A DNA stretch of 64,000 nucleotides from Escherichia phage KKP 3954. The notes under the pieces are model-generated. The model saw nothing but the letters and a program-made list of their open reading frames with translations. It was not told where the DNA came from and did no database searches. Positions 45,025 to 63,398 of this stretch are shown piece by piece. The position numbers and the translations under genes are program-made. Location of the stretch: the sequence record OR067838.1. One strand, given 5' to 3'. The stretch's first letter is position 1. Every line of letters begins with the position of its first letter.

Positions 45025-45498
45025 ATGTTTCAAGTAAATATCAATGTGCATAATAGTTACTCTGATTGTGAAACGTGTGGCTATAATTCATCTAATGTTG
45101 TTCGTATTAGTGGCGATTTAGGAGAAGCTTCTTTTGGAGAAGAAGCAAGTTGCTTTAGTGGTATGGATGCAGAATGGAATGATATTGCACATTGGTTGGT
45201 GAGCAAACTAAAAGAAAAAGAGAAACCATTTCCTACTCTGCTTGATCGTTCTCTTGTAGAAGATGCAGGTAAAGCATATGCAGACTATGCGTATGCAGAC
45301 GGGAAATATTTGGAAGATGATAAGGCTAACCATTTGCTTTATGTTTACTATGAAGCTGAATCTGCCTACGATAATTATTATAGCATGTCTAACATCCTCC
45401 GTCTATTTGCAGAGTTTGATATTTATTTCGAAGTAGAATTTTCAGAAGACGATACTTACGAATATGATTCTTATGATCCATTTGAGGAGGACGAATAA
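45025..45498 (+). CDS. hypothetical acidic protein
   Basis: 157 aa; GGAGGG RBS. Confidence 0.5.
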   Translation: MFQVNINVHNSYSDCETCGYNSSNVVRISGDLGEASFGEEASCFSGMDAEWNDIAHWLVSKLKEKEKPFPTLLDRSLVEDAGKAYADYAYADGKYLEDDKANHLLYVYYEAESAYDNYYSMSNILRLFAEFDIYFEVEFSEDDTYEYDSYDPFEEDE

Positions 45499-46298
45499 TG
45501 CCAAGACGTGTATATTTTATTAGTGGTGCGGGACTAAGTGCTGACAGCGGAATCCAAACATTTCGCACAGAAACAGATTCTGGAAAGGCATTATGGGATG
45601 AATATGATTTAACAGAAGTCTGTGACATTTTCAACTTCCGTGACGGTTATCAGCAAGAACAGGGTATTCCTGATGCTATGGGTGGCTTAGATGTGGAAGG
45701 ATATAACCTCTACCGTAAAACTCACGACTTCTACAATAAACGTCGCGTGGAATTAGAGAAAGTTGACCCGAATCCAGCACATCTTCAGATTGGAGAATGG
45801 TTCGAAAAATACGGTGCAGAAAGGATTATTAACATTACTACTAACGTTGACGATCTATTAGAACGCGCTGGAATCGATAGAGAAGAAATATTGCACGTTC
45901 ATGGTTTCTTGCCAGAAGTTGTTGTTGATAACAAAATTATCAAAGATGTGGGTTACGCAGCTATTGATGTAGACGATTACAAATATGTGAAGCCTAATGT
46001 GGTGTTTTTTGGTGAGAATGCACCACTCTACACAGACATGTATCACAAACTGGATCAACTAACATCACAAGATATGGTTATCGTTGTAGGCTGCTCTAAC
46101 CAAGTAATCAACTTCAACTGGGAACTCTTCCCTGCCCTGAATATTGGGGTTAAGATGGTTGTAGTTAACCCAGGTTTGAATTTTGTAGAACAAACTCTCT
46201 ACGAAGAACGTGGAGTGCTTGTCTACCGAGAGAAAGCAGGAACAGTCTTCAGTGATGAAGGCTTTATCAAAATGGTTGAAGACCATTTAAACAAATAA
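45498..46298 (+). CDS. sirtuin-like (SIR2 family) NAD-dependent protein without zinc ribbon
   Basis: 266 aa; FISGAGLSADSGIQTFR, NPAH, TTNVDDL, HVHG, VVFFGE, VVGCS in SIR2 order; no Cys4 module. Confidence 0.6.
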   Translation: MPRRVYFISGAGLSADSGIQTFRTETDSGKALWDEYDLTEVCDIFNFRDGYQQEQGIPDAMGGLDVEGYNLYRKTHDFYNKRRVELEKVDPNPAHLQIGEWFEKYGAERIINITTNVDDLLERAGIDREEILHVHGFLPEVVVDNKIIKDVGYAAIDVDDYKYVKPNVVFFGENAPLYTDMYHKLDQLTSQDMVIVVGCSNQVINFNWELFPALNIGVKMVVVNPGLNFVEQTLYEERGVLVYREKAGTVFSDEGFIKMVEDHLNK

Positions 46299-46614: not shown

Positions 46615-46620
46615 AACAAA

Positions 46621-46649
46621 GGCACCCAAGTGGGTGCCTTTTCTATTTT
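46621..46649. terminator. bidirectional terminator at convergent gene junction
   Basis: GGCACCC-AAGT-GGGTGCC hairpin with T-runs on both sides. Confidence 0.55.
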
Positions 46650-50896: not shown

Positions 50897-51092
50897 TTCT
50901 ACCTCCTTCAATGCTTTGTGCCATATCATCCCAAGCCATTAGAATGTTTTCCAATAGTTCACGAGGCTCTTTAAACCAAACTTCCATTTCATCAAGAATC
51001 TCGTCCGTGTCGTAAGTATAACCTGGAACACCAAGTTCACATTTCTTAATATAACTTTCTAACCAACGATGATAAGTCTTAGCCCCATTCAT
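50889..51092 (-). CDS. hypothetical protein
   Basis: 67 aa. Confidence 0.45.
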   Translation of the reverse strand: MNGAKTYHRWLESYIKKCELGVPGYTYDTDEILDEMEVWFKEPRELLENILMAWDDMAQSIEGGRNE

Positions 51093-51465
51093 ACTGTGCT
51101 ACCTTTTCTTTTACCCAATCTACGCGATCTTTGTCATAATGTTGAGTGCCAAGGAAAAGACCATTGTGGAAACTTTCCTCACCGAAAGGATAAATTGGAT
51201 CTAAACCATCTTCTTCAAACAACATTTTTAATCTGTTTGATGTAGATTTCTTAGTTTCTGAATTGTAGTTTGTGGTTATAAGCCAATCTTCCAAACAACG
51301 ACACAAGCCTTGACGAGAATCCCAAGGAAAAACACAATCTCCGACAGGAGCTTGTTCCGCCCATTTCAACCAACCTTTAAAAAAGTTATACAGTATATAG
51401 TCTTCAGTGTAATACATTAGCTCCTCCTTTACATATACAATAACACCCCGCAGAACGGGGTGCAA
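51079..51465 (-). CDS. paralog family A member 1 (GLC / PF / WVKDR motifs)
   Basis: 128 aa; FFKGWLKWA, GLCRCL, PIYPFGE, RVDWVKEKV. Confidence 0.55.
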   Translation of the reverse strand: MHPVLRGVIVYVKEELMYYTEDYILYNFFKGWLKWAEQAPVGDCVFPWDSRQGLCRCLEDWLITTNYNSETKKSTSNRLKMLFEEDGLDPIYPFGEESFHNGLFLGTQHYDKDRVDWVKEKVAQYEWG

Positions 51466-51468
51466 CTA

Positions 51469-52080
51469 TTATTTAATCTGTTTAAAAATTTCGTTTGGAA
51501 CGGTACCGTTTAAAATACCTTCTACGATCTCTTGTGCAGATGTGTAAGAGAGTCCAAAAGAAGCTACGCCTAAAATTGCCTCCTTCAAAGGATCTGGTAA
51601 GGGTTCAAAATTACCTGCAACAAATCCTCCCGCACAAGCAGCACCTTCATCATCCCAGAAAACAACTGCTACTTCATTACCATGTGAAGTTGTGCGATGT
51701 GCAAGAACTTCAACTTCAGTACCTTCTTTAGGAATAGAATAAGAGGTGTCCCAGGAGTATCTTTCTAAATCGGGGACAAAAATAACCTTCTCACCTACTG
51801 GCGGCAGTTCACAACGATAATACCAAGAATTTTTTTCGTTCATTGTTTTATTTTCCTCCACGTCTTCAAAAGTAACGATCCAATCGTAGCCGTAAGAAAA
51901 CGGATATTTTAGATCTAAAGAATAAGTTTGACCTAGATCGTCCTCAACAAGAACCATCCTGTCAAAGTTTGCGATGTTAGGATTATGTTTAATGACAGGG
52001 TATGTTTCCCCTACAGTAAATTGTCCCAAATGGTAAAGTTCGTCTCTCCAAGTGATTTTGATACGAGTGCATTGAATCAT
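51469..52080 (-). CDS. hypothetical protein
   Basis: 203 aa. Confidence 0.55.
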   Translation of the reverse strand: MIQCTRIKITWRDELYHLGQFTVGETYPVIKHNPNIANFDRMVLVEDDLGQTYSLDLKYPFSYGYDWIVTFEDVEENKTMNEKNSWYYRCELPPVGEKVIFVPDLERYSWDTSYSIPKEGTEVEVLAHRTTSHGNEVAVVFWDDEGAACAGGFVAGNFEPLPDPLKEAILGVASFGLSYTSAQEIVEGILNGTVPNEIFKQIK

Positions 52081-52084
52081 AAAA

Positions 52085-52327
52085 TTACCCCCAAGAAATA
52101 GCTATGTATCTTACAATGTTTGCACTGTCTAAAGCCATGTTTGCACCACACCCACGCTCGCGCCAGTAACTAACAATACCTTCACAAATACTCTCTTGTA
52201 TCTTCTTATCATTTGGCATTTCTAATATAAGACTTGGGTTGTGGATGTTTATGTTATAATATCCTTCCTCTGCGGCTTGAGCTACCAATTTACTCACTTT
52301 TTCAAAATACAGGGGAATTAGTGGCAT
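52085..52327 (-). CDS. hypothetical protein (YWRxxGC motif, possible family C)
   Basis: 80 aa; IVSYWRERGCGAN. Confidence 0.45.
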   Translation of the reverse strand: MPLIPLYFEKVSKLVAQAAEEGYYNINIHNPSLILEMPNDKKIQESICEGIVSYWRERGCGANMALDSANIVRYIAISWG

Positions 52328-52357
52328 CTGCTATTGTTTTTAAGGTTTGTCTATCCA

Positions 52358-52756
52358 TTATTCTGCCTCATCATAGAAGAAATCCAACTCTTGTTCCAGT
52401 TGTTTAACTCGATCCTTAACCCACTGTACACGTTTTTCATTAAACATGCAACGTTTTTCCTTACACTCTTGCTCAAAAGATTTTGCTGTGTTAAATGGGA
52501 AAGTTGTATCTAAGCCAGCGTTTTCAAAACTGGCTAATTGCATACCATAAACAGAATATGCTAAAGAATGCTCGGCCCGAAATTCATCACTTATATACAT
52601 ACGTAGACCTCGGCATAAGCCAACATCAGCGTAACCACTTTCTCTTGGAAAGAGACGGAGGTGTTCTAACCAATTATTATAGAAATCTAAAAGAATCCTC
52701 TTACACTTCAAATCGATTGTCATAAAAAGTTTCTCCTTCATCGAACAAGTTGGCAA
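52358..52756 (-). CDS. paralog family A member 2
   Basis: 132 aa; FYNNWLEHL, GLCRGL, TFPFN, RVQWVKDRV. Confidence 0.55.
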   Translation of the reverse strand: MPTCSMKEKLFMTIDLKCKRILLDFYNNWLEHLRLFPRESGYADVGLCRGLRMYISDEFRAEHSLAYSVYGMQLASFENAGLDTTFPFNTAKSFEQECKEKRCMFNEKRVQWVKDRVKQLEQELDFFYDEAE

Positions 52757-53123
52757 GATTGTTCACGGCAATCTGGGTGGAAAGAAGACAACTGTTTGCA
52801 GACACATAAGCACGAGCTATTTTGTAAACATAGGCTTTCGTATTACAATTGTCTAGGATCGGAAGACTTTCGTCGATAGCATCTATAACACTAAACATCA
52901 CATCTAAAACTTTAATGGTGAGTGTTGTATTTGTATCTTCGTAACCTTTTTCAATCCGACCTGAATAGAAAGCATAGTCCTCAACAGTTCGTCGTTTAAA
53001 CTGGCGCATAAAATCGGAACCATCTGTAGCAGAATTGAACAAATTTTCAAAAAATACCTCCCATCCGGCAAAAAGGGCTGACAGCATGATTAAGTGATCT
53101 ACAGATTCATTTTCTTGTTTCAT
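52701..53123 (-). CDS. hypothetical protein
   Basis: 140 aa. Confidence 0.5.
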   Translation of the reverse strand: MKQENESVDHLIMLSALFAGWEVFFENLFNSATDGSDFMRQFKRRTVEDYAFYSGRIEKGYEDTNTTLTIKVLDVMFSVIDAIDESLPILDNCNTKAYVYKIARAYVSANSCLLSTQIAVNNLANLFDEGETFYDNRFEV

Positions 53124-53131
53124 ATCCTCTC

Positions 53132-53809
53132 CTATTTAATGTTCAATCTAGCACACAAGCGAGAAACAGTTTTAGCATCCCACTTACCACCACGTGCTGT
53201 TGCGATTTTCTTACTATTGAATTTTTCAGCAATAGTTTTGTAAGGTGTATTTAAATCTCTAAGGATTTCTAAGCGTTCACGGAATGTCTCTGCAAAAGCG
53301 TCTGCTTTAACAGAATTGTATTCCATTTTTCCTTTTCTACGTGCAGCAGCAGTTTTAGGATTAGCACTGCCTAATAAAACACCTTTGCTTTTTGCTACAG
53401 CAAGACCCTTTTTAATACGATCAGCAATACCTCTAACTTCTTGTTCAGCCAGAACAGACAGAAGCTGTATAACCATTTTATCTGCGTCTGGCATGATGGC
53501 TATCTTAACATCGATCATTTCTAGAAGAGTTGCTACGGAGGCGTTGTTACGACCCAAGCGGTCAACTTTAGCTACCAATAAAGTTGCTCCGGTAGCTTTA
53601 CACATTTCAACCGCTTTAACCAGTTCCTTACGTTGCTTCCAATCGCCCTTACCCGAATAGTATTCAGAAAATTGACCAATAACTTCCGCATCAGGTACAG
53701 AGTCTAAGAAGTAACGGATATCGTTCTCTTGGCTCTCCATACCATATTGTGCCTCACCTTTTTTCTGTTTAGAAAGACGACTGTAAACAACAAACTTTTT
53801 CATAACCAC
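53132..53809 (-). CDS. small serine recombinase (resolvase/invertase family)
   Basis: 225 aa; catalytic VYSRLSKQ ... SQ, VAKVDRLGRN, C-terminal HTH-like region. Confidence 0.7.
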   Translation of the reverse strand: MVMKKFVVYSRLSKQKKGEAQYGMESQENDIRYFLDSVPDAEVIGQFSEYYSGKGDWKQRKELVKAVEMCKATGATLLVAKVDRLGRNNASVATLLEMIDVKIAIMPDADKMVIQLLSVLAEQEVRGIADRIKKGLAVAKSKGVLLGSANPKTAAARRKGKMEYNSVKADAFAETFRERLEILRDLNTPYKTIAEKFNSKKIATARGGKWDAKTVSRLCARLNIK

Positions 53810-53873
53810 TCCTAAACCATTGCTGTATTCTCACTTTACAAAACGAATAAACACTTGTCAAGGTATTTATTAT

Positions 53874-54086
53874 TTACAGCCATTCTACTCTTAAGCAGTA
53901 TTCCTCGACATGTTGTTTACGCTTGTTTTTGTCTATGTAAGTGTATTCAACAAATGTCCCAAGATAGTCCTTGTCTACATTGTGTGGGCTATTGATTGGA
54001 CATTTAGTACGACAAACCCGTTGCCACTGACGAAGAATTACGGCTTTGTTTTTAGGATCAAACGGATGAGGGTAATGTACCTTCAT
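53874..54086 (-). CDS. hypothetical protein
   Basis: 70 aa. Confidence 0.45.
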   Translation of the reverse strand: MKVHYPHPFDPKNKAVILRQWQRVCRTKCPINSPHNVDKDYLGTFVEYTYIDKNKRKQHVEEYCLRVEWL

Positions 54087-54410
54087 TCACGCCCCCTGTT
54101 TTAGTCGAAAAATATTTTGAATAACTAGAGATGTATAGTTATCACTTAGTCCCATAAGTTCTACTTCCAAGTTTCGAATATCTTCCACCGTAGGAGGATA
54201 TGTTGGTAAAAATGCTTGAGCATTGCCAGATCCAACCTCATTGCTGTAAGCAGTTGTAAAATTGTAAGATACAAAACATGAAACACCTTTTTGTCGGTAC
54301 CCGATTAATCGACGAATACACCAGATAAGAGCCAAACCTATGAGAACACCTCCTAAACCAGCTAACAAGAAGGATAAGTTTATAATAGCTTCGTTAACAA
54401 CTGCTTGCAT
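54087..54410 (-). CDS. hypothetical membrane protein
   Basis: 107 aa; N-terminal TM segment LAGLGGVLIGLALIW. Confidence 0.5.
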   Translation of the reverse strand: MQAVVNEAIINLSFLLAGLGGVLIGLALIWCIRRLIGYRQKGVSCFVSYNFTTAYSNEVGSGNAQAFLPTYPPTVEDIRNLEVELMGLSDNYTSLVIQNIFRLKQGA

Positions 54411-54420
54411 TCTTTTCTCC

Positions 54421-54720
54421 TTAGTTATGTAAACCCAAATGTGCTACAACTTCTCTACGATAAGATAACTGCATAGCAATTTTATAGCCAGGATGAAAAC
54501 CATTTACATCAATATCATCAAACCAAACCTCAAACGAACCGTGCTTAAGAGTCATTAAATTGATATACCATTCAATAGTATAATGATCGTCGGCAATACC
54601 TTCGATGTAAAATTCTCGGCAACAGTGAGATAAGTCTTCACTTGTTTCACGTTTCCAATCCTTAATAGCCCCTTTCTCTTTGGCTTTGTTCAGAATGTTG
54701 ATCAGGTCTTCAACTTGCAT
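54421..54720 (-). CDS. hypothetical protein
   Basis: 99 aa. Confidence 0.5.
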   Translation of the reverse strand: MQVEDLINILNKAKEKGAIKDWKRETSEDLSHCCREFYIEGIADDHYTIEWYINLMTLKHGSFEVWFDDIDVNGFHPGYKIAMQLSYRREVVAHLGLHN

Positions 54721-54773
54721 ATCTATCTCCTTTGTGGTTAATCTTTATATTTTAAATATTATACCGTCTTCTA

Positions 54774-55226
54774 TCAAATAGCCTCTTTCTCTAAAACAAC
54801 TCTTTGGATCACAACATCTTCAATGTTTGCCAAACAATGACCCAAAGTCAATCCTGCTTTGAAAGGTGCTTGTAGTTTGGACTCAGCTTCTACGCGAATA
54901 GAATGTTCCGCTCCGCACATGGTGTAATCTACACGGTAAACGTTTAAACCTAAGAACATAGATTCTTCTTCCTCACAACAAGGATTGAGTTCAGCCCATT
55001 CCCAAGCATCTCCTTCTAAAGCAAACGGGGTGTTGTAATTGAAGAAAGTGCAGCGCGGATACTCCCCGTTGAAAGAATCTTTCAACAAGATATATTTCTT
55101 ACCGTTTGCGTGGAAGAGTTCTCCTTTGATAACCTTGCCTACAAGGATATCACTGTTAGTAGAACGGGTGCAGATAAACTTTTTCATGATTTTCTCCTCT
55201 TTGTTTTGATGAGATGAGTATGACAA
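54774..55226 (-). CDS. hypothetical protein
   Basis: 150 aa. Confidence 0.5.
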   Translation of the reverse strand: MSYSSHQNKEEKIMKKFICTRSTNSDILVGKVIKGELFHANGKKYILLKDSFNGEYPRCTFFNYNTPFALEGDAWEWAELNPCCEEEESMFLGLNVYRVDYTMCGAEHSIRVEAESKLQAPFKAGLTLGHCLANIEDVVIQRVVLEKEAI

Positions 55227-55249
55227 AGACAGATCCTTCTGTCAACGAT

Positions 55250-55489
55250 TTATTTCCACTCGCCTTGATGTTCTTTGATCTCGTAAGAGTAGTATTCGAA
55301 CATGCTCATACAAACCACACCTGCCATTTCTAAACAAAAAGGTTTGTCATTATAGAAGGCACTTACTGCTCTTCCTGCTTTATGTGCTGCTTCTTCGGAA
55401 TCACAACCGCAAACGTTATGCACCCAAGGATCAGGGCCATCATATTTAAGACGTACAATCCACATGATCATTCTTCCATCTCGAACCAT
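55250..55489 (-). CDS. hypothetical protein
   Basis: 79 aa. Confidence 0.45.
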   Translation of the reverse strand: MVRDGRMIMWIVRLKYDGPDPWVHNVCGCDSEEAAHKAGRAVSAFYNDKPFCLEMAGVVCMSMFEYYSYEIKEHQGEWK

Positions 55490-55695
55490 TCAGGGAACAC
55501 TTTGTGGAAGACACGTGTTGTTTCTAAGAGAAATTCCAACTCTTTTTCCAAATCTGCGTTCCAACCGTTTATTTTAACACGGATTGCCAATGCACTTGCA
55601 CGGCGACTCAATTCTTGACAGATTGGATCACGCAGAACTATTGAGTCATAAAACTGACAAACAGCCTCAAGTTCATACCAGTTATAATCCGACAT
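55468..55695 (-). CDS. hypothetical protein
   Basis: 75 aa. Confidence 0.45.
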   Translation of the reverse strand: MSDYNWYELEAVCQFYDSIVLRDPICQELSRRASALAIRVKINGWNADLEKELEFLLETTRVFHKVFPEWFEMEE

Positions 55696-56021
55696 TATTC
55701 ATCCTCCTCTGCAATACGATCTCTTACCCAATTAATCCTGTCCACGTTCAGGTGACATACCTTTGCATCTGATTCTAAGACATATGCATCGTAGTTCTCA
55801 TTGAAAGGGAGTTCTTGACTCAACCCTTTGTGGTAAAACTGTGCGTGCATTTCATCTGACAAGGTTGTTATAATGGGGTTGTAATTACCTCTGTGCACAT
55901 AATCGAACAAGTTGGCACACAAACCACAATCCCGCCGAAAAGGTTTACCATCAGGAGCACCAACATCAATCCATGCTAGATAAATTTTATAAAACTCCAT
56001 CAAATCTTTACTTGTTTTCAT
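55695..56021 (-). CDS. paralog family A member 3
   Basis: 108 aa; FYKIYLAWI, GLCANL, ELPFNE, RINWVRDRI. Confidence 0.55.
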   Translation of the reverse strand: MKTSKDLMEFYKIYLAWIDVGAPDGKPFRRDCGLCANLFDYVHRGNYNPIITTLSDEMHAQFYHKGLSQELPFNENYDAYVLESDAKVCHLNVDRINWVRDRIAEEDE

Positions 56022-56092
56022 TATTTTACCTCGATCACGTTGATAAATACATCTTCACGACAATCTTTATCGTCCCCGTAGATTTGACCTAA

Positions 56093-56437
56093 TCATACAC
56101 ATGCGTTAAAGGCGGATTTTGCGGGAATTTGATATTTACGGACAGGACCATTGTCTTTTGTGTAGGAAACCTCAAAGAGACGAATAGTGTCATCCTCAAT
56201 TACATGAAACCGACCACAATCCATAATCAAAGAGATACACAGGGTATCCCCTTCTTCGTCTGTAATATAAAACAAACCTGGATTATCTATAACTTGGGAA
56301 GCTAGATACTGCTTACCCTCTTTAAGGAACTCGACAGAAGACTCTGCACATAAAAGTTTAATCATTTTTCTCCTCCTTATCTGTGTTGATAATGTATGTA
56401 TACCATACATAAAAGAAATGTCAAGGTTTATCGACAC
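56093..56437 (-). CDS. hypothetical protein
   Basis: 114 aa. Confidence 0.5.
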   Translation of the reverse strand: MSINLDISFMYGIHTLSTQIRRRKMIKLLCAESSVEFLKEGKQYLASQVIDNPGLFYITDEEGDTLCISLIMDCGRFHVIEDDTIRLFEVSYTKDNGPVRKYQIPAKSAFNACV

Positions 56438-56628
56438 AGATAGTTGTAACGATCCGCTTTATCCTCTGCTTCAGCAAAGTCAGCAATCAAGGAAGTTTTG
56501 AGTTCTTCCAACTCTTTCACCCAAGAGTCGTAATCGTTCTGTGTTTCTCCAATAGTTTGGAGAAAACAATCGTCGTAGCCAATAGACATGGCTAACTCGA
56601 TAATACGTTCCAGTTTTTCTTCCATCAC
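56428..56628 (-). CDS. hypothetical protein
   Basis: 66 aa. Confidence 0.45.
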   Translation of the reverse strand: MMEEKLERIIELAMSIGYDDCFLQTIGETQNDYDSWVKELEELKTSLIADFAEAEDKADRYNYLCR

Positions 56629-56987
56629 TTCTCTCCTTCTACAGACTTCTGTTTAACATAAAAGTAAGCACCACGAGCAAGATACAAATCATGTTCAATA
56701 TCGCTCACAGGAAAACCATCTGGATTTTTAAAACCATCTTCTACAGCCAAAATGAGAGATCGTAAACTGATAGCTAACAACTCCATTTGATCTTGTAGTT
56801 TTCTATTTTCTGCATAAAGGTTTTTGCATTTTTGTTCTGCATTTTTCCATTGTTCTAATGCGTGATCATAGTTTCGCATAAGAATAGCTTTTTCTTGTTC
56901 ACGTTTAAAGGTTTCTTCACAAATGAAACCTGTGCCTAAACCAGTTTCTTCATCTTTGACAAACATTTCAACAAAATCTTTAGACAT
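56625..56987 (-). CDS. hypothetical coiled-coil protein
   Basis: Track ORF 56625..57119; AGGAGA RBS supports start MSKDFVEMF. Confidence 0.45.
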   Translation of the reverse strand: MSKDFVEMFVKDEETGLGTGFICEETFKREQEKAILMRNYDHALEQWKNAEQKCKNLYAENRKLQDQMELLAISLRSLILAVEDGFKNPDGFPVSDIEHDLYLARGAYFYVKQKSVEGEK

Positions 56988-56988
56988 A

Positions 56989-57252
56989 TTATCTCCTATT
57001 TGCTTTTGGATACTCCCAACCCTCTGGGAGATCTTCTTTACACATCCACTCAAAAGGCCAGCGACAATAACTGTGCCACTTTCCATCGAGATACAAGCAA
57101 TCTTCATCCACTGGTCCACATGGGTTGATAACTACAACACACCCTTTCGCTCGCCAATATTGAACTATTTCAGGGTAAAAACAAGAAACGTCGGTCCACT
57201 CCCAAATACGCTCATCATTCAAACGATATGCTGCTGGCAATGTTTCTTCCAT
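56989..57252 (-). CDS. hypothetical protein (YWRxxGC motif, possible family C)
   Basis: 87 aa; IVQYWRAKGCVVV. Confidence 0.45.
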   Translation of the reverse strand: MEETLPAAYRLNDERIWEWTDVSCFYPEIVQYWRAKGCVVVINPCGPVDEDCLYLDGKWHSYCRWPFEWMCKEDLPEGWEYPKANRR

Positions 57253-57256
57253 ATTA

Positions 57257-57703
57257 TTAAACCTCTGTCAAAGAGAAACGCCAATCCTTACTACTACCTA
57301 CGCCAAGGAAGATATAGTCTCCGGTACTAACGGAAATACGCCAAGCGGGAATCCAATCAGGAATCTCTGGCTTATGGCTGTAACCATAACGATCACCATT
57401 CGAGTCTGTTGCAATATAATTAACAAATTCAGGAACATCTAAAGTTTCACCTTGATACTCTACACGCTTGAAGCCATCTTCCACTTCTTTCTCACCTTCT
57501 ACCAGACAAGCAAGAAGTTTGATGTGAGGGCAAGTGAAATCTTGTCCTGGATAACGTGAACGGATATCAGTTAACAATGCGATTACAGCATCCGATAACT
57601 CTTTATAATCCTCATATCTTACAAATGTGCCTTCTGTCGGATCATCAGGACACAAACGCCAAGCATCGTTGCAGTTTACAGCGTAATGCCTCACTTTAGT
57701 CAT
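57257..57703 (-). CDS. hypothetical protein
   Basis: 148 aa. Confidence 0.5.
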   Translation of the reverse strand: MTKVRHYAVNCNDAWRLCPDDPTEGTFVRYEDYKELSDAVIALLTDIRSRYPGQDFTCPHIKLLACLVEGEKEVEDGFKRVEYQGETLDVPEFVNYIATDSNGDRYGYSHKPEIPDWIPAWRISVSTGDYIFLGVGSSKDWRFSLTEV

Positions 57704-57713
57704 AAATCCCCCC

Positions 57714-58112
57714 TTATCGTTGCGTACAATCAGCTTCTAGAGTAAGAACATTCGTTATTGTTTTATCATTTTTTAGAAATGCAAACCAAGCTAAAGTATC
57801 TCGATACTCTGTGCGCATCATCACAACTTCGGTAGTGCCAATAAACTGCTGTGAACCGTACATAGAACTTCCATCTTTACTCTTTCCTCCTGTGTTTTGA
57901 AGAATACCGCTCATCAAAGCACCACCCGAATTTTTAAGGATAAAGGAGTTGTCTTTATTAATGACAACAGAAGCCATTTTCTTAGGACCAGAAATCACTT
58001 CACCTTTCAGATTTTTAACAACTACGTCTGATACACACTCATAAACTTGAGATGCATTCGCTGTTCCAAGAGATGCAATGAGTAACAATAAACCTACGAT
58101 AATCTTTTTCAT
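57714..58112 (-). CDS. secreted/periplasmic hypothetical protein
   Basis: 132 aa; signal peptide MKKIIVGLLLLIASLGTANA; followed by hairpin plus T-run. Confidence 0.55.
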   Translation of the reverse strand: MKKIIVGLLLLIASLGTANASQVYECVSDVVVKNLKGEVISGPKKMASVVINKDNSFILKNSGGALMSGILQNTGGKSKDGSSMYGSQQFIGTTEVVMMRTEYRDTLAWFAFLKNDKTITNVLTLEADCTQR

Positions 58113-58207
58113 ATAAACTCTCCTCTTTATTTACCCGACGCGCCCCTGTTGGGCGGAAAGGGTTATACGCAAAATTTTTAGCTCCAATCGTCGGGTGTCC
58201 CGACTCC

Positions 58208-58414
58208 TTACGCTTTTAATGTTTTAACAGAATGACAAGCTTTGCAAACCATAACTGGAACAAGTTCATCTCCATTATCCGCATAAATCACTGTTTTCTT
58301 CATTCTGCTACCACATGAACAATACACTGTATGATCTACTGGAATATTAAATATTCCGTAATCACTTTCATACTGTTTCTTACACATGGATACTGCTTTT
58401 GTAAAACAAGACAT
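58208..58414 (-). CDS. small Cys-rich protein
   Basis: 68 aa; CSCGSR ... CKACH. Confidence 0.45.
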   Translation of the reverse strand: MSCFTKAVSMCKKQYESDYGIFNIPVDHTVYCSCGSRMKKTVIYADNGDELVPVMVCKACHSVKTLKA

Positions 58415-58416
58415 AC

Positions 58417-58638
58417 CTACTCCGCAAGAACATTCACTTCGTCAGAGAAAAATACGTAATCACAACCTTCCCAAACATCTTCTTCAAACCACTCCCATCC
58501 CTCAACTTTGGACATTTCTTCTATCGTAACAAAGAATGTTGCCATATCCTCACTAACAAGATGTGCTTCAACAACAAAAGGAATCTGAACATTCTCAAAA
58601 CCAACATAACCCAATACATCACAAACTCTAATTTTCAT
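58417..58638 (-). CDS. paralog family B member 1
   Basis: 73 aa; EWFEEDVWEGCDYVFFSDE. Confidence 0.5.
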   Translation of the reverse strand: MKIRVCDVLGYVGFENVQIPFVVEAHLVSEDMATFFVTIEEMSKVEGWEWFEEDVWEGCDYVFFSDEVNVLAE

Positions 58639-58639
58639 A

Positions 58640-58840
58640 TTATGCTCCTTTGTAGATTATGTTGGTGCGTTCACACTCTGCCACCAGCAAGCGATTAGCA
58701 ATGTTGTCCATAGGAACATCAATCTCTACGCTCCAGGCGTTGATATACACTTCTTCAATCTTTGCTCCAAGCATTTGTGCGATCAAGGCAACAGCCCCAG
58801 CATATTCAAGTTTAATCTCAATTACCATTTTGCACCTCAA
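58640..58840 (-). CDS. hypothetical protein
   Basis: 66 aa. Confidence 0.45.
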   Translation of the reverse strand: MRCKMVIEIKLEYAGAVALIAQMLGAKIEEVYINAWSVEIDVPMDNIANRLLVAECERTNIIYKGA

Positions 58841-58842
58841 GG

Positions 58843-59079
58843 TTATTTATCTTGCTTGTATCTTACAAGGCGATCACACTCCAGGTCAAGAAATTTCTCC
58901 GCATTTCGTTCATGTTTGAGCACAATACATTGTTCTTTCAAGTCTGTAGCTCTTTGCTGCGCGGCTCCTGGGTCAAAATCCCAAAGCCATGCAGCGAAAA
59001 GAACCACCATAACAATTGCCAAGAAAACAAACACTATAGGCATTGCACATCCTCCTGTGTGGCATGATCTTTTACCCAT
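58843..59079 (-). CDS. hypothetical membrane protein
   Basis: 78 aa; TM segment IVFVFLAIVMVVLFAAWLW. Confidence 0.45.
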   Translation of the reverse strand: MGKRSCHTGGCAMPIVFVFLAIVMVVLFAAWLWDFDPGAAQQRATDLKEQCIVLKHERNAEKFLDLECDRLVRYKQDK

Positions 59080-59348
59080 TTTATACGAGCAGCATTCAAA
59101 TGTAGCAGCCCGTTTCTTTGTGCAAAATCATATTTAAACCAATCCCCATCATCAAACGGGTATTCTTCAGACAAACCTGCTTCGCGGAATTGCATTTGCA
59201 TTTCATAATTTAGGTCATCATAACCACCAGACCAAAGATATAGGCAGCTACATAACCCTTTATCATGCCAGAAAGGATTATTATCTGGAGCACCAGCTAA
59301 CAGCCAGTTATGATATGCCTGATAAAATTCTTTAAGTTCCTCTGACAT
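59034..59348 (-). CDS. paralog family A member 4
   Basis: 104 aa; FYQAYHNWL, GLCSCL, EYPFDD, RIKWVKDH. Confidence 0.55.
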   Translation of the reverse strand: MSEELKEFYQAYHNWLLAGAPDNNPFWHDKGLCSCLYLWSGGYDDLNYEMQMQFREAGLSEEYPFDDGDWFKYDFAQRNGLLHLNAARIKWVKDHATQEDVQCL

Positions 59349-59591
59349 TTAACCTCCTGTGTGCAGTGTTGAAAGATACACAGCAAAAGCATTCTCGGCT
59401 GTTTTCACCTCCTCTTCAAGATCTTCACGCTCTGCTGGTGTTAGTGCATTTCGCACAGCAGCGTCTGCTTCTCGGATTTTTCTTACTAAACGTGAAACAT
59501 CTTTCAGTTGTTGAAAAGTAGCCATAATCTTTCTCCTGGAATCTCTGTGATCTCCCCTTTGCGGGTTTCGAAGATGGTATCCCCTTTTCAA
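59349..59591 (-). CDS. hypothetical protein
   Basis: 80 aa. Confidence 0.45.
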   Translation of the reverse strand: MKRGYHLRNPQRGDHRDSRRKIMATFQQLKDVSRLVRKIREADAAVRNALTPAEREDLEEEVKTAENAFAVYLSTLHTGG

Positions 59592-59806
59592 TTAGTCGGA
59601 TTTTCATATCGTGCTTCCTTCAATGCGAGTAATGCGTTCACCAGATTATCAACACCTTGATCATCCAGTGCGATAACATCGAAGTTAAACCCTGTATCAG
59701 TTGGGACTTTACGTTTTATGGTGTAATAGTCTCCTTCATGACGTTCAACATACGCGTATGGGTAACTGCTGTTTGGATCATGTTTCACGCGAATAGATGT
59801 TTTCAT
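59588..59806 (-). CDS. hypothetical protein
   Basis: 72 aa. Confidence 0.45.
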   Translation of the reverse strand: MKTSIRVKHDPNSSYPYAYVERHEGDYYTIKRKVPTDTGFNFDVIALDDQGVDNLVNALLALKEARYENPTN

Positions 59807-59821
59807 GTTTTGTTCTCCTCT

Positions 59822-60121
59822 TTAGTCAAACCAGTCGTATTCAGAAGGGTAACGAGCGTAGTTTGGCTTATACCCCAGTCTTTTCATCTTAACAGACATA
59901 CGAGTGAAGCCAAAGGTTGTTTTGCCCTTAGACATAAACTTCTTCCCGCTCTTCATTGGCTTCTTAGGGTTTTTGATCGTCTGGTGTAACGCTCGCGCAA
60001 GCCACAGAGTGTATGCGCTCGGCACTTGATTAACTTTCATCTTGTTACCTTTCATCGAAACCTCCTTAGTGAACTTCGTGCCAAGTGCCAAACTCTTCTG
60101 CTGATACTTTAGGAACGGCAT
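59822..60121 (-). CDS. hypothetical basic protein
   Basis: 99 aa, Lys-rich. Confidence 0.45.
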   Translation of the reverse strand: MPFLKYQQKSLALGTKFTKEVSMKGNKMKVNQVPSAYTLWLARALHQTIKNPKKPMKSGKKFMSKGKTTFGFTRMSVKMKRLGYKPNYARYPSEYDWFD

Positions 60122-60293
60122 GAGTTTCTCGGTATTTGTTTAAAGCTTTCTCAACGGCTGTAGCAAAAACATCTTGTGATTTATGAGGCATATAATAAGA
60201 GCGCCCCATATATGCTACTGCATCACGTAATTCTTCTGCTTGCTCTTGTGTAACTGTCAATGTGATAGTAACCATTATTTCACCTCCGACCAA
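60066..60293 (-). CDS. hypothetical protein
   Basis: 75 aa. Confidence 0.4.
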   Translation of the reverse strand: MVGGEIMVTITLTVTQEQAEELRDAVAYMGRSYYMPHKSQDVFATAVEKALNKYRETHAVPKVSAEEFGTWHEVH

Positions 60294-60574
60294 TCAATAG
60301 TGATCCACTCGTATGCCCCATTCAGATCCATTTCTTTATAAACAATAAGCCCACGCTCACGAAGAATTGCTACTGCTTCATCCATCCACTTCACCTGATT
60401 GTAGATCGCCCCTGGGTGGGTAGGGGAATTATCCAGACCAAAATCAGATGGCGTGAAATTTCTTGAAGAGTTTCCCGCTCGTGCTTCAGCAAAACATGTC
60501 TCGATCACTTCTTCAACAGGGAAGTTGAAGGAAGCTTCTTTTGCAATACGGCGTAACTGTTCGGTCAGATTCAT
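60275..60574 (-). CDS. hypothetical protein
   Basis: 99 aa. Confidence 0.5.
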   Translation of the reverse strand: MNLTEQLRRIAKEASFNFPVEEVIETCFAEARAGNSSRNFTPSDFGLDNSPTHPGAIYNQVKWMDEAVAILRERGLIVYKEMDLNGAYEWITIDWSEVK

Positions 60575-60601
60575 CTTATTCTCCTTTCGTTGTGCGAAAC
60601 A

Positions 60602-61039
60602 TTATAACAGATCTAATGCTTTCAATTCTTCTTTCAATGATTCAGGCAAGTCACATTCAATGTCAATCAGGGATAACAAGTGACCAACAATGCCTTCCAG
60701 ATGTTGATACTCACTATAACTTATAAATTCAGAATTGTAAACAGAAACATCCTTAGTTTCTTTCACAACTTCCCCCGCAGACACGCACATAAAAAAGTTA
60801 CGCTCTCCGCGAGCTAACAATATCTCCCAACTTCTGAACGGATACTGTCCAGCTTCAATAATATCTCCGCTGTCCAATAAAGTCAATGAGCAAACAGACC
60901 CTGATTCACTAACATCTTCGACGCGGAAACAAGACCCTTCAATCAAAGCTGCCATTTTGAAATTTTCATCAGAGATCATAGAGAAAGCTTCACAGGCAGC
61001 TTTAGTTTTGAAACAGTAAACAGCATTAACTTTAAACAT
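60602..61039 (-). CDS. hypothetical protein
   Basis: 145 aa. Confidence 0.5.
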   Translation of the reverse strand: MFKVNAVYCFKTKAACEAFSMISDENFKMAALIEGSCFRVEDVSESGSVCSLTLLDSGDIIEAGQYPFRSWEILLARGERNFFMCVSAGEVVKETKDVSVYNSEFISYSEYQHLEGIVGHLLSLIDIECDLPESLKEELKALDLL

Positions 61040-61051
61040 AACATTCCCCTT

Positions 61052-61510
61052 TTAAACAAAAGATACGCCGATGGTAGCAACAACCAAACGTTTATAAACT
61101 TCAACCTCTTCTGTAGGATTAGCCATTTTATGCTCTGCTGCTTCTTTCAAAGCTTCTTCATAACTTTGAGATCCAGAGATACAGGTGTCACCAGTCATTA
61201 CAACATACCACTCTTCTTTTGTTGTATCAACAGGCTCTTCTTGGGGTTTTCCACGACCACCACGAACACCGCCGTCAACAAAATAATCTATATGAGCAGA
61301 ATTGATTATGTAACGATCCCCATCGCCAGCAGTGATAATACCGTCCCTCATACCTATCACAACCATTGACAAGATATTACCATTTGTATCAGTGCTCAAC
61401 ACCTCGAAAAAATTCTCTCCGATGATAGCTGCAATACTGTTATCAAAGGTAGAATATAGTCGCATATAATCCTCATCCTGGAAACGGTAGACATGACCTT
61501 CTTTAAACAT
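61052..61510 (-). CDS. hypothetical protein
   Basis: 152 aa. Confidence 0.5.
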   Translation of the reverse strand: MFKEGHVYRFQDEDYMRLYSTFDNSIAAIIGENFFEVLSTDTNGNILSMVVIGMRDGIITAGDGDRYIINSAHIDYFVDGGVRGGRGKPQEEPVDTTKEEWYVVMTGDTCISGSQSYEEALKEAAEHKMANPTEEVEVYKRLVVATIGVSFV

Positions 61511-61964
61511 TGTTCTCTCCTCCTAACCCATCATACCATTTCAAAGCGTCTTTTGGAAGCATACCAAAATCTTCTTTCAGTTCTTTTTCAATCTCTTCTT
61601 GCATTTCCATCAGCATTTTCAATTGACGAACTTTTTTGTGCATAGCCACATTCCTTTCATTAAGGTTTGTCACTACATTATTTGCACGACTCGGTGGAAA
61701 CGACAAAGGTTTCACGGGAAGATAATCTTCGATATTATCTAGCGCGTTACGAAAATTATGATCCAAGAAACGCACATCTACACGATTGTAATCGGCAGCT
61801 ACAACAGTGAACACTTTAAACGGCACATTGGATAAAGTATGTTGCACACAGACAATACCCATATTGCCTTCAATTTTACTATTAACTTCCAGCAAACCTG
61901 TATGAGCACTAACATAATCGTGAACACATTGCACATAAGCTGCCAGTATAGAGAATTGTCTCAT
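61503..61964 (-). CDS. hypothetical protein
   Basis: 153 aa. Confidence 0.5.
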   Translation of the reverse strand: MRQFSILAAYVQCVHDYVSAHTGLLEVNSKIEGNMGIVCVQHTLSNVPFKVFTVVAADYNRVDVRFLDHNFRNALDNIEDYLPVKPLSFPPSRANNVVTNLNERNVAMHKKVRQLKMLMEMQEEIEKELKEDFGMLPKDALKWYDGLGGENNV

Positions 61965-62182
61965 TTTCTACCTCCCCATAATGCTAACATTTTATTGAAA
62001 ATGGAAACGCGTCGTGCGCGAGATGCCATATCATAATTCATTCTTTCCGTCTCTGCAAGAAATTGATCTACTGTAATCAACGCTTCTGTCTTCTCTTTCA
62101 GAGTTTGCATATTCATCCATTCACATTCAGAAGTACCAATTATCGAAATACAAACTATCGAGAAGATCCATTGCTGCTTCAT
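61961..62182 (-). CDS. hypothetical protein
   Basis: 73 aa. Confidence 0.45.
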   Translation of the reverse strand: MKQQWIFSIVCISIIGTSECEWMNMQTLKEKTEALITVDQFLAETERMNYDMASRARRVSIFNKMLALWGGRK

Positions 62183-62213
62183 TCTGTTGTGGTGTGATCA
62201 TTGCACACAACCC

Positions 62214-62444
62214 TTAATAGACAATTTCATATTCGTGAGGAAAGAAAACATAATCTTCCCCTTCTCGTGCATCTATCTCGTCCCAAAACCATTCCTGCAC
62301 TTCCATCATCTTCGAGAATCGCACATGAGCAAGCCCACTGTATTCCACAGTAGCTTCCAACACAAGTGGAAATTTTGCATGTGCCAATCCTTTATAACCA
62401 CCATCATTCTCAATACGAATTTTCATGCGTTTCATGTTATGCAT
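62214..62444 (-). CDS. paralog family B member 2
   Basis: 76 aa; EWFWDEIDAREGEDYVFFPHE. Confidence 0.5.
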   Translation of the reverse strand: MHNMKRMKIRIENDGGYKGLAHAKFPLVLEATVEYSGLAHVRFSKMMEVQEWFWDEIDAREGEDYVFFPHEYEIVY

Positions 62445-62646
62445 CCTTCAGACCCTTAATAAAGTAACGACCAACCAGATTCCCTCGGAAGTATTCGTTA
62501 ATGAAATCGATAACACACGTTTCACTGCCTGTCACAACGGACGGCTTAAAGTTTTGGAATTCTACAGCTACACGGCTGGCTTTAGCCAGTGCTTGCACAC
62601 GTGTAGGATCAGTCAAGAACATTGTGACAGTTTTCAAATTCTTCAT
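62437..62646 (-). CDS. hypothetical protein
   Basis: 69 aa. Confidence 0.45.
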   Translation of the reverse strand: MKNLKTVTMFLTDPTRVQALAKASRVAVEFQNFKPSVVTGSETCVIDFINEYFRGNLVGRYFIKGLKDA

Positions 62647-62695
62647 TTCATCTCCTCATTGGCTATCTGTTATGTCATCCATTATACAAACATCT

Positions 62696-63079
62696 TTATT
62701 CAATGCAAGCATTATTTACATCTTCAATCCGATCTTTCACCCACTGAAGACGTAACGTGTTGGTATGACACGCCAAGTTTATACACTCTGAAAGGTAATC
62801 CATGCAATCCACATTGAACGGAAGATTGTAGTCCAGCCCTGCACATGTAAATTGTTTCCTCATTTCATATTTCAAACGGTCCAACAAATGATCACGCCAT
62901 TTTCTATCTTCTTCTCTAGGTGTCTCACCAACAAAATCATCTACATAATCTACCAGACAACCACATAAGCCACTCGTTGTGCGATTCATTGCAGGATAGT
63001 TGGCAATCCATGCTTTATAGAAGCGAAGCAATGTTGCACTGCTCAACGGAATACTATTTGTCATCTTTCTCTCCTTCAT
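62696..63079 (-). CDS. paralog family A member 5
   Basis: 127 aa; FYKAWIANY, GLCGCL, NLPFNVD, RLQWVKDRI. Confidence 0.55.
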   Translation of the reverse strand: MKERKMTNSIPLSSATLLRFYKAWIANYPAMNRTTSGLCGCLVDYVDDFVGETPREEDRKWRDHLLDRLKYEMRKQFTCAGLDYNLPFNVDCMDYLSECINLACHTNTLRLQWVKDRIEDVNNACIE

Positions 63080-63398
63080 AATCTTGAATTCTATCTAGCA
63101 CCCATTGTATACGATGTTTGTTTTTATGGCAAATATGTTTTTTATGTTCAAAGGTGTATTCCTCATAACCACCTTCATTAAACGGGAAATTGTAATCCAA
63201 TCCTGCACCAATAAACTGTGATTTCATCTCCTGTTGTAGACGAGGTAACAGTTCATCAGGGTATGTTCCCTCTACATACTTAATCAAACATATGCACAAA
63301 CCACTCGTTGTGTGACCTTCTACCTCACCAGCAAGCCAAGCTTTGTAAAACTTCATTAGACGTAAACTACTTAACGGAACATTTTTACTCTCTTGCAT
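63054..63398 (-). CDS. paralog family A member 6
   Basis: 114 aa; FYKAWLAGE, GLCICL, NFPFNEG, RIQWVLDRI; overlaps member 5 by 26 nt. Confidence 0.55.
   Translation of the reverse strand: MQESKNVPLSSLRLMKFYKAWLAGEVEGHTTSGLCICLIKYVEGTYPDELLPRLQQEMKSQFIGAGLDYNFPFNEGGYEEYTFEHKKHICHKNKHRIQWVLDRIQDYEGEKDDK

What the first reader, a model, noticed from the sequence alone, without database searches (positions are those of the whole stretch)
51079..63398. Six-member paralog family scattered through the minus-strand block
Six ORFs (51079-51465, 52358-52756, 55695-56021, 59034-59348, 62696-63079, 63054-63398) share the same motif order: FY-x-x-WL near the N-terminus, GLC-x-C/G-L, E-M-x-x-QF, GL-x-x-x-PF(N/D), and a C-terminal R-(I/V)-x-WV-(K/R)-D-R-(I/V). 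The last two are tandem and overlap by 26 nt. Six diverged copies in 12 kb points to repeated duplication and diversification, as seen in phage host-range or counter-defence families. The conserved Cys and aromatic residues suggest a small folded binding domain.
Basis: seen in the sequence. Interest (0 to 1): 0.65.

Follow-up and report, generated by a model that had tools for sequence, protein, structure and literature searches.

The report
N4 gp3-like early phage protein family
The six genes are true relatives within a very large, phage-only family of small helical proteins of unknown function, first seen here to include coliphage N4 gp3, that phages keep in several copies among their early genes.

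Summary
The window is a Phapecoctavirus (phAPEC8-like E. coli myovirus). The six minus-strand ORFs are homologous (leave-one-out HMM E 1e-16 to 1e-29), and a family HMM finds exactly six in the window. All match PHROG 2510 (unknown function); nothing matches in Pfam, NCBIfam, PADLOC or PDB sequences.

AlphaFold gives a confident five-helix domain (pLDDT 94) with no convincing structural relative in the PDB. An exhaustive search finds about 1,800 clusters, including 2- and 3-domain fusions. Members include coliphage N4 early protein gp3, and tandem arrays occur in PTXU04 (3), Yersinia phage JC221 (4) and PsgM04F (10 copies, three in tandem).

The copies are old subfamilies, each under purifying selection (omega 0.02-0.33, like neighbouring genes) and present in about 60 related genomes. 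Turnover happens by gain, loss and recombination between the tandem copies, which produces chimeras. A host-range role is very unlikely. Counter-defence or host takeover is plausible but untested; the three PTXU04 homologues are individually dispensable in a published knock-down screen.

C35 and R95 are invariant and E57, Q61, H90 and N92 are highly conserved, which points to a shared site. Function remains unknown, so this is a good target for experiments rather than a discovery in itself.

The parts
63054..63398 (-). Family copy 1, the upstream gene of the tandem pair; 114 aa; ortholog of phAPEC8_0018.
   Evidence: ORF. ATG 63398 follows GAGAGGAG. PHROG 2510 E 6e-26. It keeps the full conserved set S4, C35, E57, Q61, H90, N92, R95. 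omega = 0.105.
62696..63064 (-). Family copy 2, the downstream gene of the tandem pair; 122 aa from ATG 63064 (the ORF extends to 63079); ortholog of phAPEC8_0019. It carries a roughly 12-residue insertion between helices 2 and 3.
   Evidence: GAAGGAGAG lies upstream of ATG 63064, giving an 11-nt overlap with copy 1. PHROG 2510 E 2e-25. 47% identical to copy 1. omega = 0.334. Chimeras with copy 1 occur in relatives.
59034..59348 (-). Family copy 3; 104 aa; ortholog of phAPEC8_0030; the most conserved copy.
   Evidence: ATG follows AGGAGG. PHROG 2510 E 6e-29. omega = 0.019. At least 95% identical in 61 phage records.
55695..56021 (-). Family copy 4; 108 aa; ortholog of phAPEC8_0041; the protein that was modelled.
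   Evidence: PHROG 2510 E 1.6e-32. AlphaFold pLDDT 94.3, pTM 0.86, five helices. omega = 0.328.
52358..52723 (-). Family copy 5; 121 aa from ATG 52723 (the ORF extends to 52756); ortholog of phAPEC8_0051. A divergent copy that lacks S4, E57, Q61 and H90.
   Evidence: GAAGGAGAA upstream. PHROG 2510 E 3e-26. Residue table. omega = 0.094.
51079..51417 (-). Family copy 6; 112 aa from ATG 51417 (the ORF extends to 51465); ortholog of phAPEC8_0054. A divergent copy that lacks S4, E57, Q61 and E83.
   Evidence: AAGGAGGAG upstream. PHROG 2510 E 8e-27. Residue table. omega = 0.214.
51443..51463 (-). Terminator-like hairpin between the upstream gene (51469-52080) and copy 6. It lies inside the spurious TTG extension of the ORF.
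   Evidence: Nine-pair stem with 6 GC pairs followed by a T-rich tail. A terminator is annotated at the same place in phage Schickermooser. This supports ATG 51417 as the true start.

Best explanation
The six genes encode paralogous members of a very large, phage-restricted family of acidic, soluble, roughly 100-residue five-helix proteins. The family is PHROG 2510, and its best-known member is the coliphage N4 early-region protein gp3.

Shown:
- They are real, expressed-looking genes under purifying selection.
- The six-copy set is conserved across the genus.
- The family sits in early or left-end regions of unrelated phage types (N4-like, T7-like, T4-like, rV5-like).
- It has expanded into tandem arrays and 2-3-domain fusions many times independently.
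- The three PTXU04 homologues are individually dispensable on a laboratory host.

Inferred: the proteins are made early and act in the host cytoplasm as accessory binding modules for host takeover or counter-defence. A conserved site (invariant C35 and R95, plus E57, Q61, H90 and N92) would contact one common ligand or partner. The hypervariable segments (about residues 20-32, 43-56 and 75-89) would give each paralog a different specificity. New variants arise by gain and loss of copies and by recombination between neighbouring copies at the conserved motifs.
For: - Homology and exact count.
- PHROG 2510 at 1e-25 to 1e-32.
- Confident helical model. All 20 significant structural neighbours in BFVD are uncharacterised phage proteins.
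- Family size: 1,798 cluster representatives, including 2- and 3-domain fusions.
- Phage-only distribution: 260 phage records; one plasmid hit, which is a phage-plasmid; none in the bacterial genome pattern scan.
- N4 gp3 is a member at E 3.7e-21. Rhizobium T7-like phage genes 2 and 3, and four tandem copies in JC221, are members too. N4's left end is its early region (PMC4496689).
- PTXU04 gp85, gp86 and gp87 are scored 'Not Fit' in CRISPRi-ART (PMC11879866 supplement).
- Purifying selection and genus-wide orthologs.
- Copy number ranges from 5 to 10 in relatives, and chimeras occur.
- All six are acidic, pI 4.5-5.9.
- Conserved polar set versus variable segments.
Against: - No member has a tested function.
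- No fusion to a domain of known function was found; the only fusion partner seen is DUF551.
- No annotated gene recurs as a neighbour.
- Early expression in this phage is inferred from position only.
- I could not obtain model coordinates, so the clustering of conserved polar residues in 3D is untested. Several may be structural: helix N-caps, or a buried polar network. By helical periodicity C35 lies on the hydrophobic face of helix 2, so it may simply be a core residue.
- Two window copies have lost E57 and Q61, which weakens the idea of a single shared site.
- Ortholog-level omega shows no arms-race signal.
Confidence: 0.45

Rival explanations
1. The domain is a small enzyme, or a cofactor- or metal-binding protein. 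The invariant Cys at the N-terminus of helix 2 would be the reactive or ligating residue, helped by R95, E57, Q61, H90 and N92. Paralogs would modify different host targets, in the way phage T4 (recalled from knowledge, not tested here) uses three paralogous ADP-ribosyltransferases.
For: C35 and R95 are invariant in 119 of 119 diverse members. E57 is 92% conserved, Q61 96%, N92 87% and H90 76%. That is unusually many conserved polar residues for a 100-aa helical domain. Both domains of the two-domain fusions keep the Cys and the Arg.
Confidence: 0.17
2. The proteins serve the phage's own early programme, for example as cofactors, chaperones or adaptors for phage transcription or replication proteins, rather than acting on host defences.
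For: The family lies next to N4 gp1/gp2-type early genes in N4-like phages. Purifying selection is strong, and one copy is extremely conserved (omega 0.019).
Against: The three PTXU04 copies are individually non-essential. The family occurs in phages with entirely different transcription and replication strategies (N4-like, T7-like, T4-like, rV5-like, T1-like, jumbo). Copy number varies from 1 to 10, which fits an accessory role. The description of N4 middle transcription lists only gp1, gp2, gp15 and gp16 (PMC4496689).
Confidence: 0.15
3. The genes are host-range determinants, meaning virion or receptor-binding accessory proteins. This was one of the first reader's suggestions.
For: Only the general precedent that receptor-binding genes diversify by duplication.
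Against: They lie in the small-ORF block, convergent with the nucleotide-metabolism block and far from the head and packaging genes. They are small, acidic and all-helical, with no signal peptide or tail-fibre-like features. N4 gp3 is an early-region gene. There is no diversifying selection.
Confidence: 0.02
4. The shared motifs are chance or low-complexity matches and there is no family.
For: None.
Against: Searches give E-values down to 1e-45.
Confidence: 0

Closest known systems
PHROG 2510, with the weaker relatives PHROG 6418, 27059 and 2176; coliphage N4 gp3
   Same: There is full-length, highly significant sequence homology: 1e-25 to 1e-32 for the six copies and 3.7e-21 for N4 gp3 against the family HMM. 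The proteins share the same size and an early-region location.
   Different: N4 and most phages carry one copy, whereas this genome carries six dispersed copies. The PHROG entry and N4 gp3 have no assigned function, so membership explains nothing about mechanism.
Small early phage counter-defence proteins (Ocr/ArdA DNA mimics, the Acb2, Tad1 and Tad2 nucleotide sponges, anti-CRISPRs); the comparison is by analogy, recalled from knowledge
   Same: They are small, acidic, soluble and encoded among early genes. They are dispensable on permissive laboratory hosts, variable in copy number and phage-restricted.
   Different: There is no sequence or structural similarity to any solved protein, which would include any such inhibitors present in the PDB copies searched, and no PADLOC hit. 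The proteins are not acidic enough for a typical DNA mimic (pI 4.5-5.9). No inhibition has been tested.
Tandem multi-copy early gene arrays in other phages that belong to the same family (PTXU04 gp85-87; Yersinia phage JC221 genes 037-040; PsgM04F)
   Same: Same family. Neighbouring genes overlap by about 10 nt, suggesting translational coupling, and the copies are divergent.
   Different: In this genome only two of the six copies are adjacent. The other four are spread over 12 kb among unrelated small genes.

Membership tests
PHROG 2510 / N4 gp3-like family | Significant, near full-length match to the family profile | tested here: met
   All six copies match at E 1.6e-32 to 1.9e-25 over about 100 residues. 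N4 gp3 matches the profile built from 119 family members at E 3.7e-21 over model positions 2-105.
PHROG 2510 / N4 gp3-like family | Family-wide invariant residues F10, C35, P72, F73, R95, W98 | tested here: met
   All six copies carry all six residues.
Any Pfam, NCBIfam or PADLOC family | Match above the curated threshold | tested here: not met
   No hit approaches a gathering score. The authors of PMC11879866 also found nothing for the PTXU04 homologues using HHpred.
Structurally characterised anti-defence proteins (DNA mimics, nucleotide sponges, anti-CRISPRs) | Fold or sequence similarity to a solved member | tested here: not met
Structurally characterised anti-defence proteins (DNA mimics, nucleotide sponges, anti-CRISPRs) | Demonstrated inhibition of a defence system | not testable with these tools
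   This needs plaque assays on defence-expressing hosts.
Cys-His (papain-like or related) thiol enzymes | Invariant Cys-His pair on an alpha+beta scaffold | tested here: not met
   Cys is invariant, but His90 is present in only 76% of members and is absent from copy 52358. The model is all-helical and has no fold match.
Receptor-binding / host-range proteins | Encoded in the virion module with tail-fibre-like architecture | tested here: not met
   The genes lie in the 46.7-64 kb small-ORF block, away from terminase and portal at 1-10 kb. The proteins are 104-122 aa helical domains.

The most novel reading that the evidence does not exclude
The N4 gp3-like domain is a previously unrecognised fold with a conserved Cys/Arg-centred site. 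It would carry out a new, widely used early function in phages of Gram-negative bacteria, such as neutralising a conserved host immune or stress component. Multi-copy arrays and motif-anchored recombination would act as a built-in system for generating new specificities.
Probability: 0.3. Interest if true: 0.75.

Novelty: new member of a known kind. Interest (0 to 1): 0.45.

Why it matters
A family with about 1,800 sequence clusters has no Pfam entry, no structural relative and no known function. It is present in model phage N4 and in many candidate therapeutic phages (Phapecoctavirus, N4-like, T7-like). Its repeated independent expansion suggests it matters in natural hosts even though single copies are dispensable in the laboratory.

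This work links the six copies to N4 gp3, defines the invariant residues, and shows that chimeras form between neighbouring copies. That yields concrete experiments: C35 and R95 point mutants, multi-copy deletions, pull-downs, and defence-panel screens in tractable phages such as N4 and PTXU04.

Tried and rejected
- Pfam, NCBIfam and PADLOC scans found nothing.
- A PDB sequence-profile search gave 0 hits.
- Fusion partners: the only known domain fused to the family was DUF551, itself of unknown function. A second word-indexed search gave no Pfam annotations or names.
The RI[QK]WVKDH pattern scan found no relative.
- Plasmids gave only one hit, a phage-plasmid.
- IMG/VR gave only two loci.
- Literature searches for PHROG 2510, Phapecoctavirus paralogs, phAPEC8 early genes, Stephanstirmvirinae anti-defence, accessory-gene screens and N4 gp3 found no functional data.
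- Promoter and terminator consensus scans were no better than shuffled sequence.
- A two-domain fusion model, meant to test whether domains pair, was inconclusive at pTM 0.69.
- dN/dS between paralogs was not attempted, because at 25-47% protein identity synonymous sites are saturated.
- I considered an Erv/ALR-like sulfhydryl oxidase (helical bundle with a reactive Cys) from memory and rejected it: there is no CxxC motif and no fold match.
Full report
**What the window is.** The 12.5-kb region is 95-97% identical to more than 50 GenBank Phapecoctavirus genomes (phAPEC8-like E. coli myoviruses of about 150 kb, subfamily Stephanstirmvirinae). The window has three parts:
- 1-10 kb, minus strand: a packaging module with terminase and portal.
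- 10-46.6 kb, plus strand: a nucleotide-metabolism block with RNA ligase, DNA ligase, NrdAB and Sir2.
- 46.7 kb to the end, minus strand: a block of about 45 small ORFs.

A strong bidirectional hairpin at 46618-46641 separates the last two blocks. The finding lies in the small-ORF block.

**Checking the observation.** All six ORFs are present.
- They align over their whole length, with 15 invariant columns.
- Pairwise BLASTP E-values range from 1e-5 to 1e-30. A profile built from any five copies finds the sixth at 2e-16 to 2e-29.
- A profile of all six, or of 119 diverse relatives, finds exactly these six among 671 window ORFs.
- An all-against-all comparison shows this is by far the largest paralog set in the window. 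The only other significant pair is 58417-58638 with 62214-62444.

Two details need correcting.
- The best-supported start codons are ATG 51417, ATG 52723 and ATG 63064. Each follows a strong Shine-Dalgarno sequence and matches the gene lengths annotated in relatives. The tandem pair therefore overlaps by 11 nt rather than 26 nt. A terminator-like hairpin sits inside the spurious 5' extension of the 51079 ORF.
- The E-M-x-x-Q-F motif is kept by only four of the six copies.

**What the family is.**
- All six match PHROG 2510, annotated 'unknown function', at 1e-25 to 1e-32. Weaker hits go to three other unannotated PHROGs.
- Nothing matches in Pfam, NCBIfam, PADLOC or PDB sequences. Every GenBank ortholog is 'hypothetical protein'.
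- AlphaFold2 models the 108-aa copy as a confident five-helix domain: pLDDT 94.3, pTM 0.86.
- In the viral structure library, the 20 significant neighbours are all uncharacterised proteins of N4-like, T7-like, PhiW-14, BcepSaruman and Pakpunavirus phages.
- An exhaustive profile search of 1.84 billion cluster representatives gives 1,798 hits at E <= 1e-3 and 821 at <= 1e-10. These include many two-domain proteins, at least one three-domain protein, and a DUF551 fusion.
- tblastn finds the family in 260 phage records. Hosts span Escherichia, Klebsiella, Salmonella, Erwinia, Pectobacterium, Yersinia, Pseudomonas, Acinetobacter, Achromobacter, Burkholderia, Ralstonia, Delftia and Rhizobium.
- It is essentially absent from plasmids; the one hit is a phage-plasmid. 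A motif scan of 185,579 bacterial genomes found none.

**Link to a model phage and to early genes.**
- The family profile matches coliphage N4 gp3 over its full length (E 3.7e-21). gp3 is the third gene of the N4 left end. Genes in that region include gp1, gp2, gp15 and gp16, which are early products transcribed by the injected virion RNA polymerase (PMC4496689).
- In Erwinia N4-like phage Frozen, the member is annotated 'N4 gp3-like'.
- In the T7-like Rhizobium phage RHph_TM38, genes 2 and 3 at the extreme left end are members, and gene 3 is a two-domain fusion.
- In Burkholderia phage JG068 it is gene 5, upstream of the primase.
- In the T4-like Yersinia phage JC221, four overlapping tandem copies lie between the DNA ligase and a baseplate gene.
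- Metagenomic contexts are likewise strings of small unannotated ORFs, one of them downstream of an N4 Gp2-like gene.

Early expression in the present phage is an inference from these positions. It was not measured.

**Experimental evidence from the literature.** Phage PTXU04 carries three tandem, overlapping members, gp85-87. In the genome-wide CRISPRi-ART knock-down screen, all three were scored 'Not Fit', meaning each is dispensable on its own on the laboratory host. HHpred annotation by those authors returned 'unknown' (PMC11879866). Redundancy among the three copies was not addressed. I found no functional study of N4 gp3 or of any other member.

**Evolutionary dynamics.**
- Across seven or eight related genomes, the six ortholog groups have omega = 0.214, 0.094, 0.328, 0.019, 0.334 and 0.105 (median 0.16). 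Non-family neighbours in the same block have a median of 0.20. Each copy is therefore maintained by purifying selection, with no excess of amino-acid change.
- Each of the four copies checked has an ortholog of at least 80-95% identity in 61-64 phage records.
- Except for the tandem pair, each copy scores higher against proteins from other phages than against its own window paralogs (compared). The copies therefore represent old subfamilies, not a recent local burst.
- Turnover does occur. Syntenic regions carry 5 copies (vB_Ec-G1), 6 (four genomes), 7 (Mt1B1_P17 and ETEC-TG) or 10 (PsgM04F, with a tandem triple).
- The 5-copy genome is explained by recombination between the tandem copies. Its single gene, and protein cluster P0003 (198 sequences), join the first 13 residues of the upstream copy to the body of the downstream copy. 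Another cluster, P0002, switches parent at the conserved AGLDYN-PFN motif. The conserved motifs thus act as crossover points that collapse or reshuffle neighbouring copies.

**Sequence anatomy and what it suggests.**
- In 119 diverse members, F10, C35, P72, F73, R95 and W98 are invariant.
- L7, Y11, G33, L34, E57, Q61, F62, L67 and V99 exceed 90% conservation.
- S4, E83, H90 and N92 are 72-87% conserved.
- Segments 20-32, 43-56 and 75-89 are highly variable.
- Four window copies keep the whole polar set. Copies 51079 and 52358 have lost S4, E57 and Q61, and 52358 has also lost H90.
- All six are acidic, pI 4.5-5.9, which argues against DNA binding.

This many conserved polar residues is compatible with a shared ligand, partner or catalytic site flanked by specificity-determining variable segments. 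I could not obtain model coordinates to test whether these residues cluster on the surface. By helical periodicity C35 lies on the hydrophobic face of helix 2, and S4, N74 and N92 could be helix caps, so a purely structural explanation remains open. A model of a natural two-domain fusion has confident domains (pLDDT 92) but pTM of only 0.69, so it does not settle whether domains pair.

**Most likely mechanism.** I commit, at about 45% confidence, to the following. These are early, cytoplasmic, non-essential accessory binding modules used for host takeover or counter-defence. A conserved scaffold and site are shared by all copies, and variable loops give each paralog its own target. The repertoire is adjusted by copy gain and loss and by recombination at conserved motifs.

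Rivals:
- A Cys-dependent enzyme or cofactor-binding protein, about 17%. The invariant C35 and R95 favour it. The non-invariant His, the loss of E57 and Q61 in two copies, and the absence of any enzyme-like fold weaken it.
- A role in the phage's own early programme, about 15%. Dispensability, variable copy number, and presence in phages with unrelated transcription and replication strategies weaken it.
- Host range, about 2%.

**Comparison with known things, and novelty.** Membership in PHROG 2510 / the N4 gp3-like family is tested and met. Membership in any characterised family is tested and not met. Functionally the closest analogy is the class of small early anti-defence proteins, but that is a resemblance in lifestyle only.

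These exact genes are already in GenBank and in PHROGs as hypothetical proteins, so I rate the finding a new member of a known but uncharacterised kind. Four things are new here:
- recognition of a stable six-copy set;
- the link to N4 gp3;
- the invariant Cys/Arg signature on a fold without known relatives;
- the motif-anchored chimeras.

Interest is moderate at 0.45. Nothing here overturns expectations, but it is a well-defined, widespread and experimentally tractable unknown.

Noticed in passing
window 58417-58638 (-) and 62214-62444 (-): This is a second paralog pair: 37.5% identity, E 6e-11, and both match PHROG 15322 (unknown function). Each lies two or three genes downstream of a family member (59034 and 62696), which might be the remnant of an old segmental duplication.
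   Followed up: partly
window 60602-61039 (-) and 61052-61510 (-): These adjacent genes both match PHROG 3710 and 5804 (unknown function). Some GenBank relatives label them 'goF mRNA metabolism modulator' or 'RNA metabolism moderator'. The label is not supported by any PHROG annotation, and relatives have an extra 786-nt gene inserted between them.
   Followed up: partly
window 53132-53809 (-): A serine recombinase / DNA invertase (PHROG 125, E 1e-32) sits in the middle of the small-ORF block. Several GenBank relatives mis-annotate it as 'methionine ABC transporter ATP-binding protein'. I did not look for a target of inversion. A resolvase also lies near a family member on an unrelated 62.6-kb metagenomic contig (L017).
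   Followed up: no
window 46618-46641: A perfect 10-bp GC-rich hairpin with T-runs on both sides looks like a bidirectional terminator. It lies exactly where the plus-strand and minus-strand blocks converge.
   Followed up: no
window 57714-58112 (-): This 132-aa protein has an N-terminal signal-peptide-like sequence (MKKIIVGLLLLIASLGTANA) inside the small-ORF block. It matches PHROG 26124 (unknown function) and may be a secreted or periplasmic early protein.
   Followed up: no
window 45498-46298 (+): A Sir2-like NAD-dependent deacetylase gene (PHROG 2162, E 1e-96) is the last sizeable gene of the plus-strand block.
   Followed up: no
GenBank records MG065650 (Campylobacter phage B15), MG065645 (A145), OP562383 (Acinetobacter phage ABPW7), OR584014 (Pseudomonas phage PsgM04F): These records are 82-97% identical to E. 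coli Phapecoctavirus genomes across this region but are labelled with non-enterobacterial hosts. The host assignments look doubtful.
   Followed up: no
L012 (Escherichia phage Bas79, PQ850629) 2393-2794 (+): A clear family member (E 1e-31) is not annotated in this record. The record instead annotates a CDS on the opposite strand (Bas79_0090), probably a mis-call.
   Followed up: partly
L007 (Mt1B1_P17) 4545-4889 and L010 (ETEC-TG) 4544-4888, equivalent to window ~55250-55490: These relatives carry a seventh family copy, about 51% identical to the 55695 copy. The window instead has an unrelated 79-aa ORF (55250-55489) at that position. This spot appears to be a hotspot for gene replacement.
   Followed up: partly
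protein P0046: This family member has an N-terminal extension of about 50 residues that looks like one or two transmembrane helices, so it may be a membrane-anchored variant.
   Followed up: no
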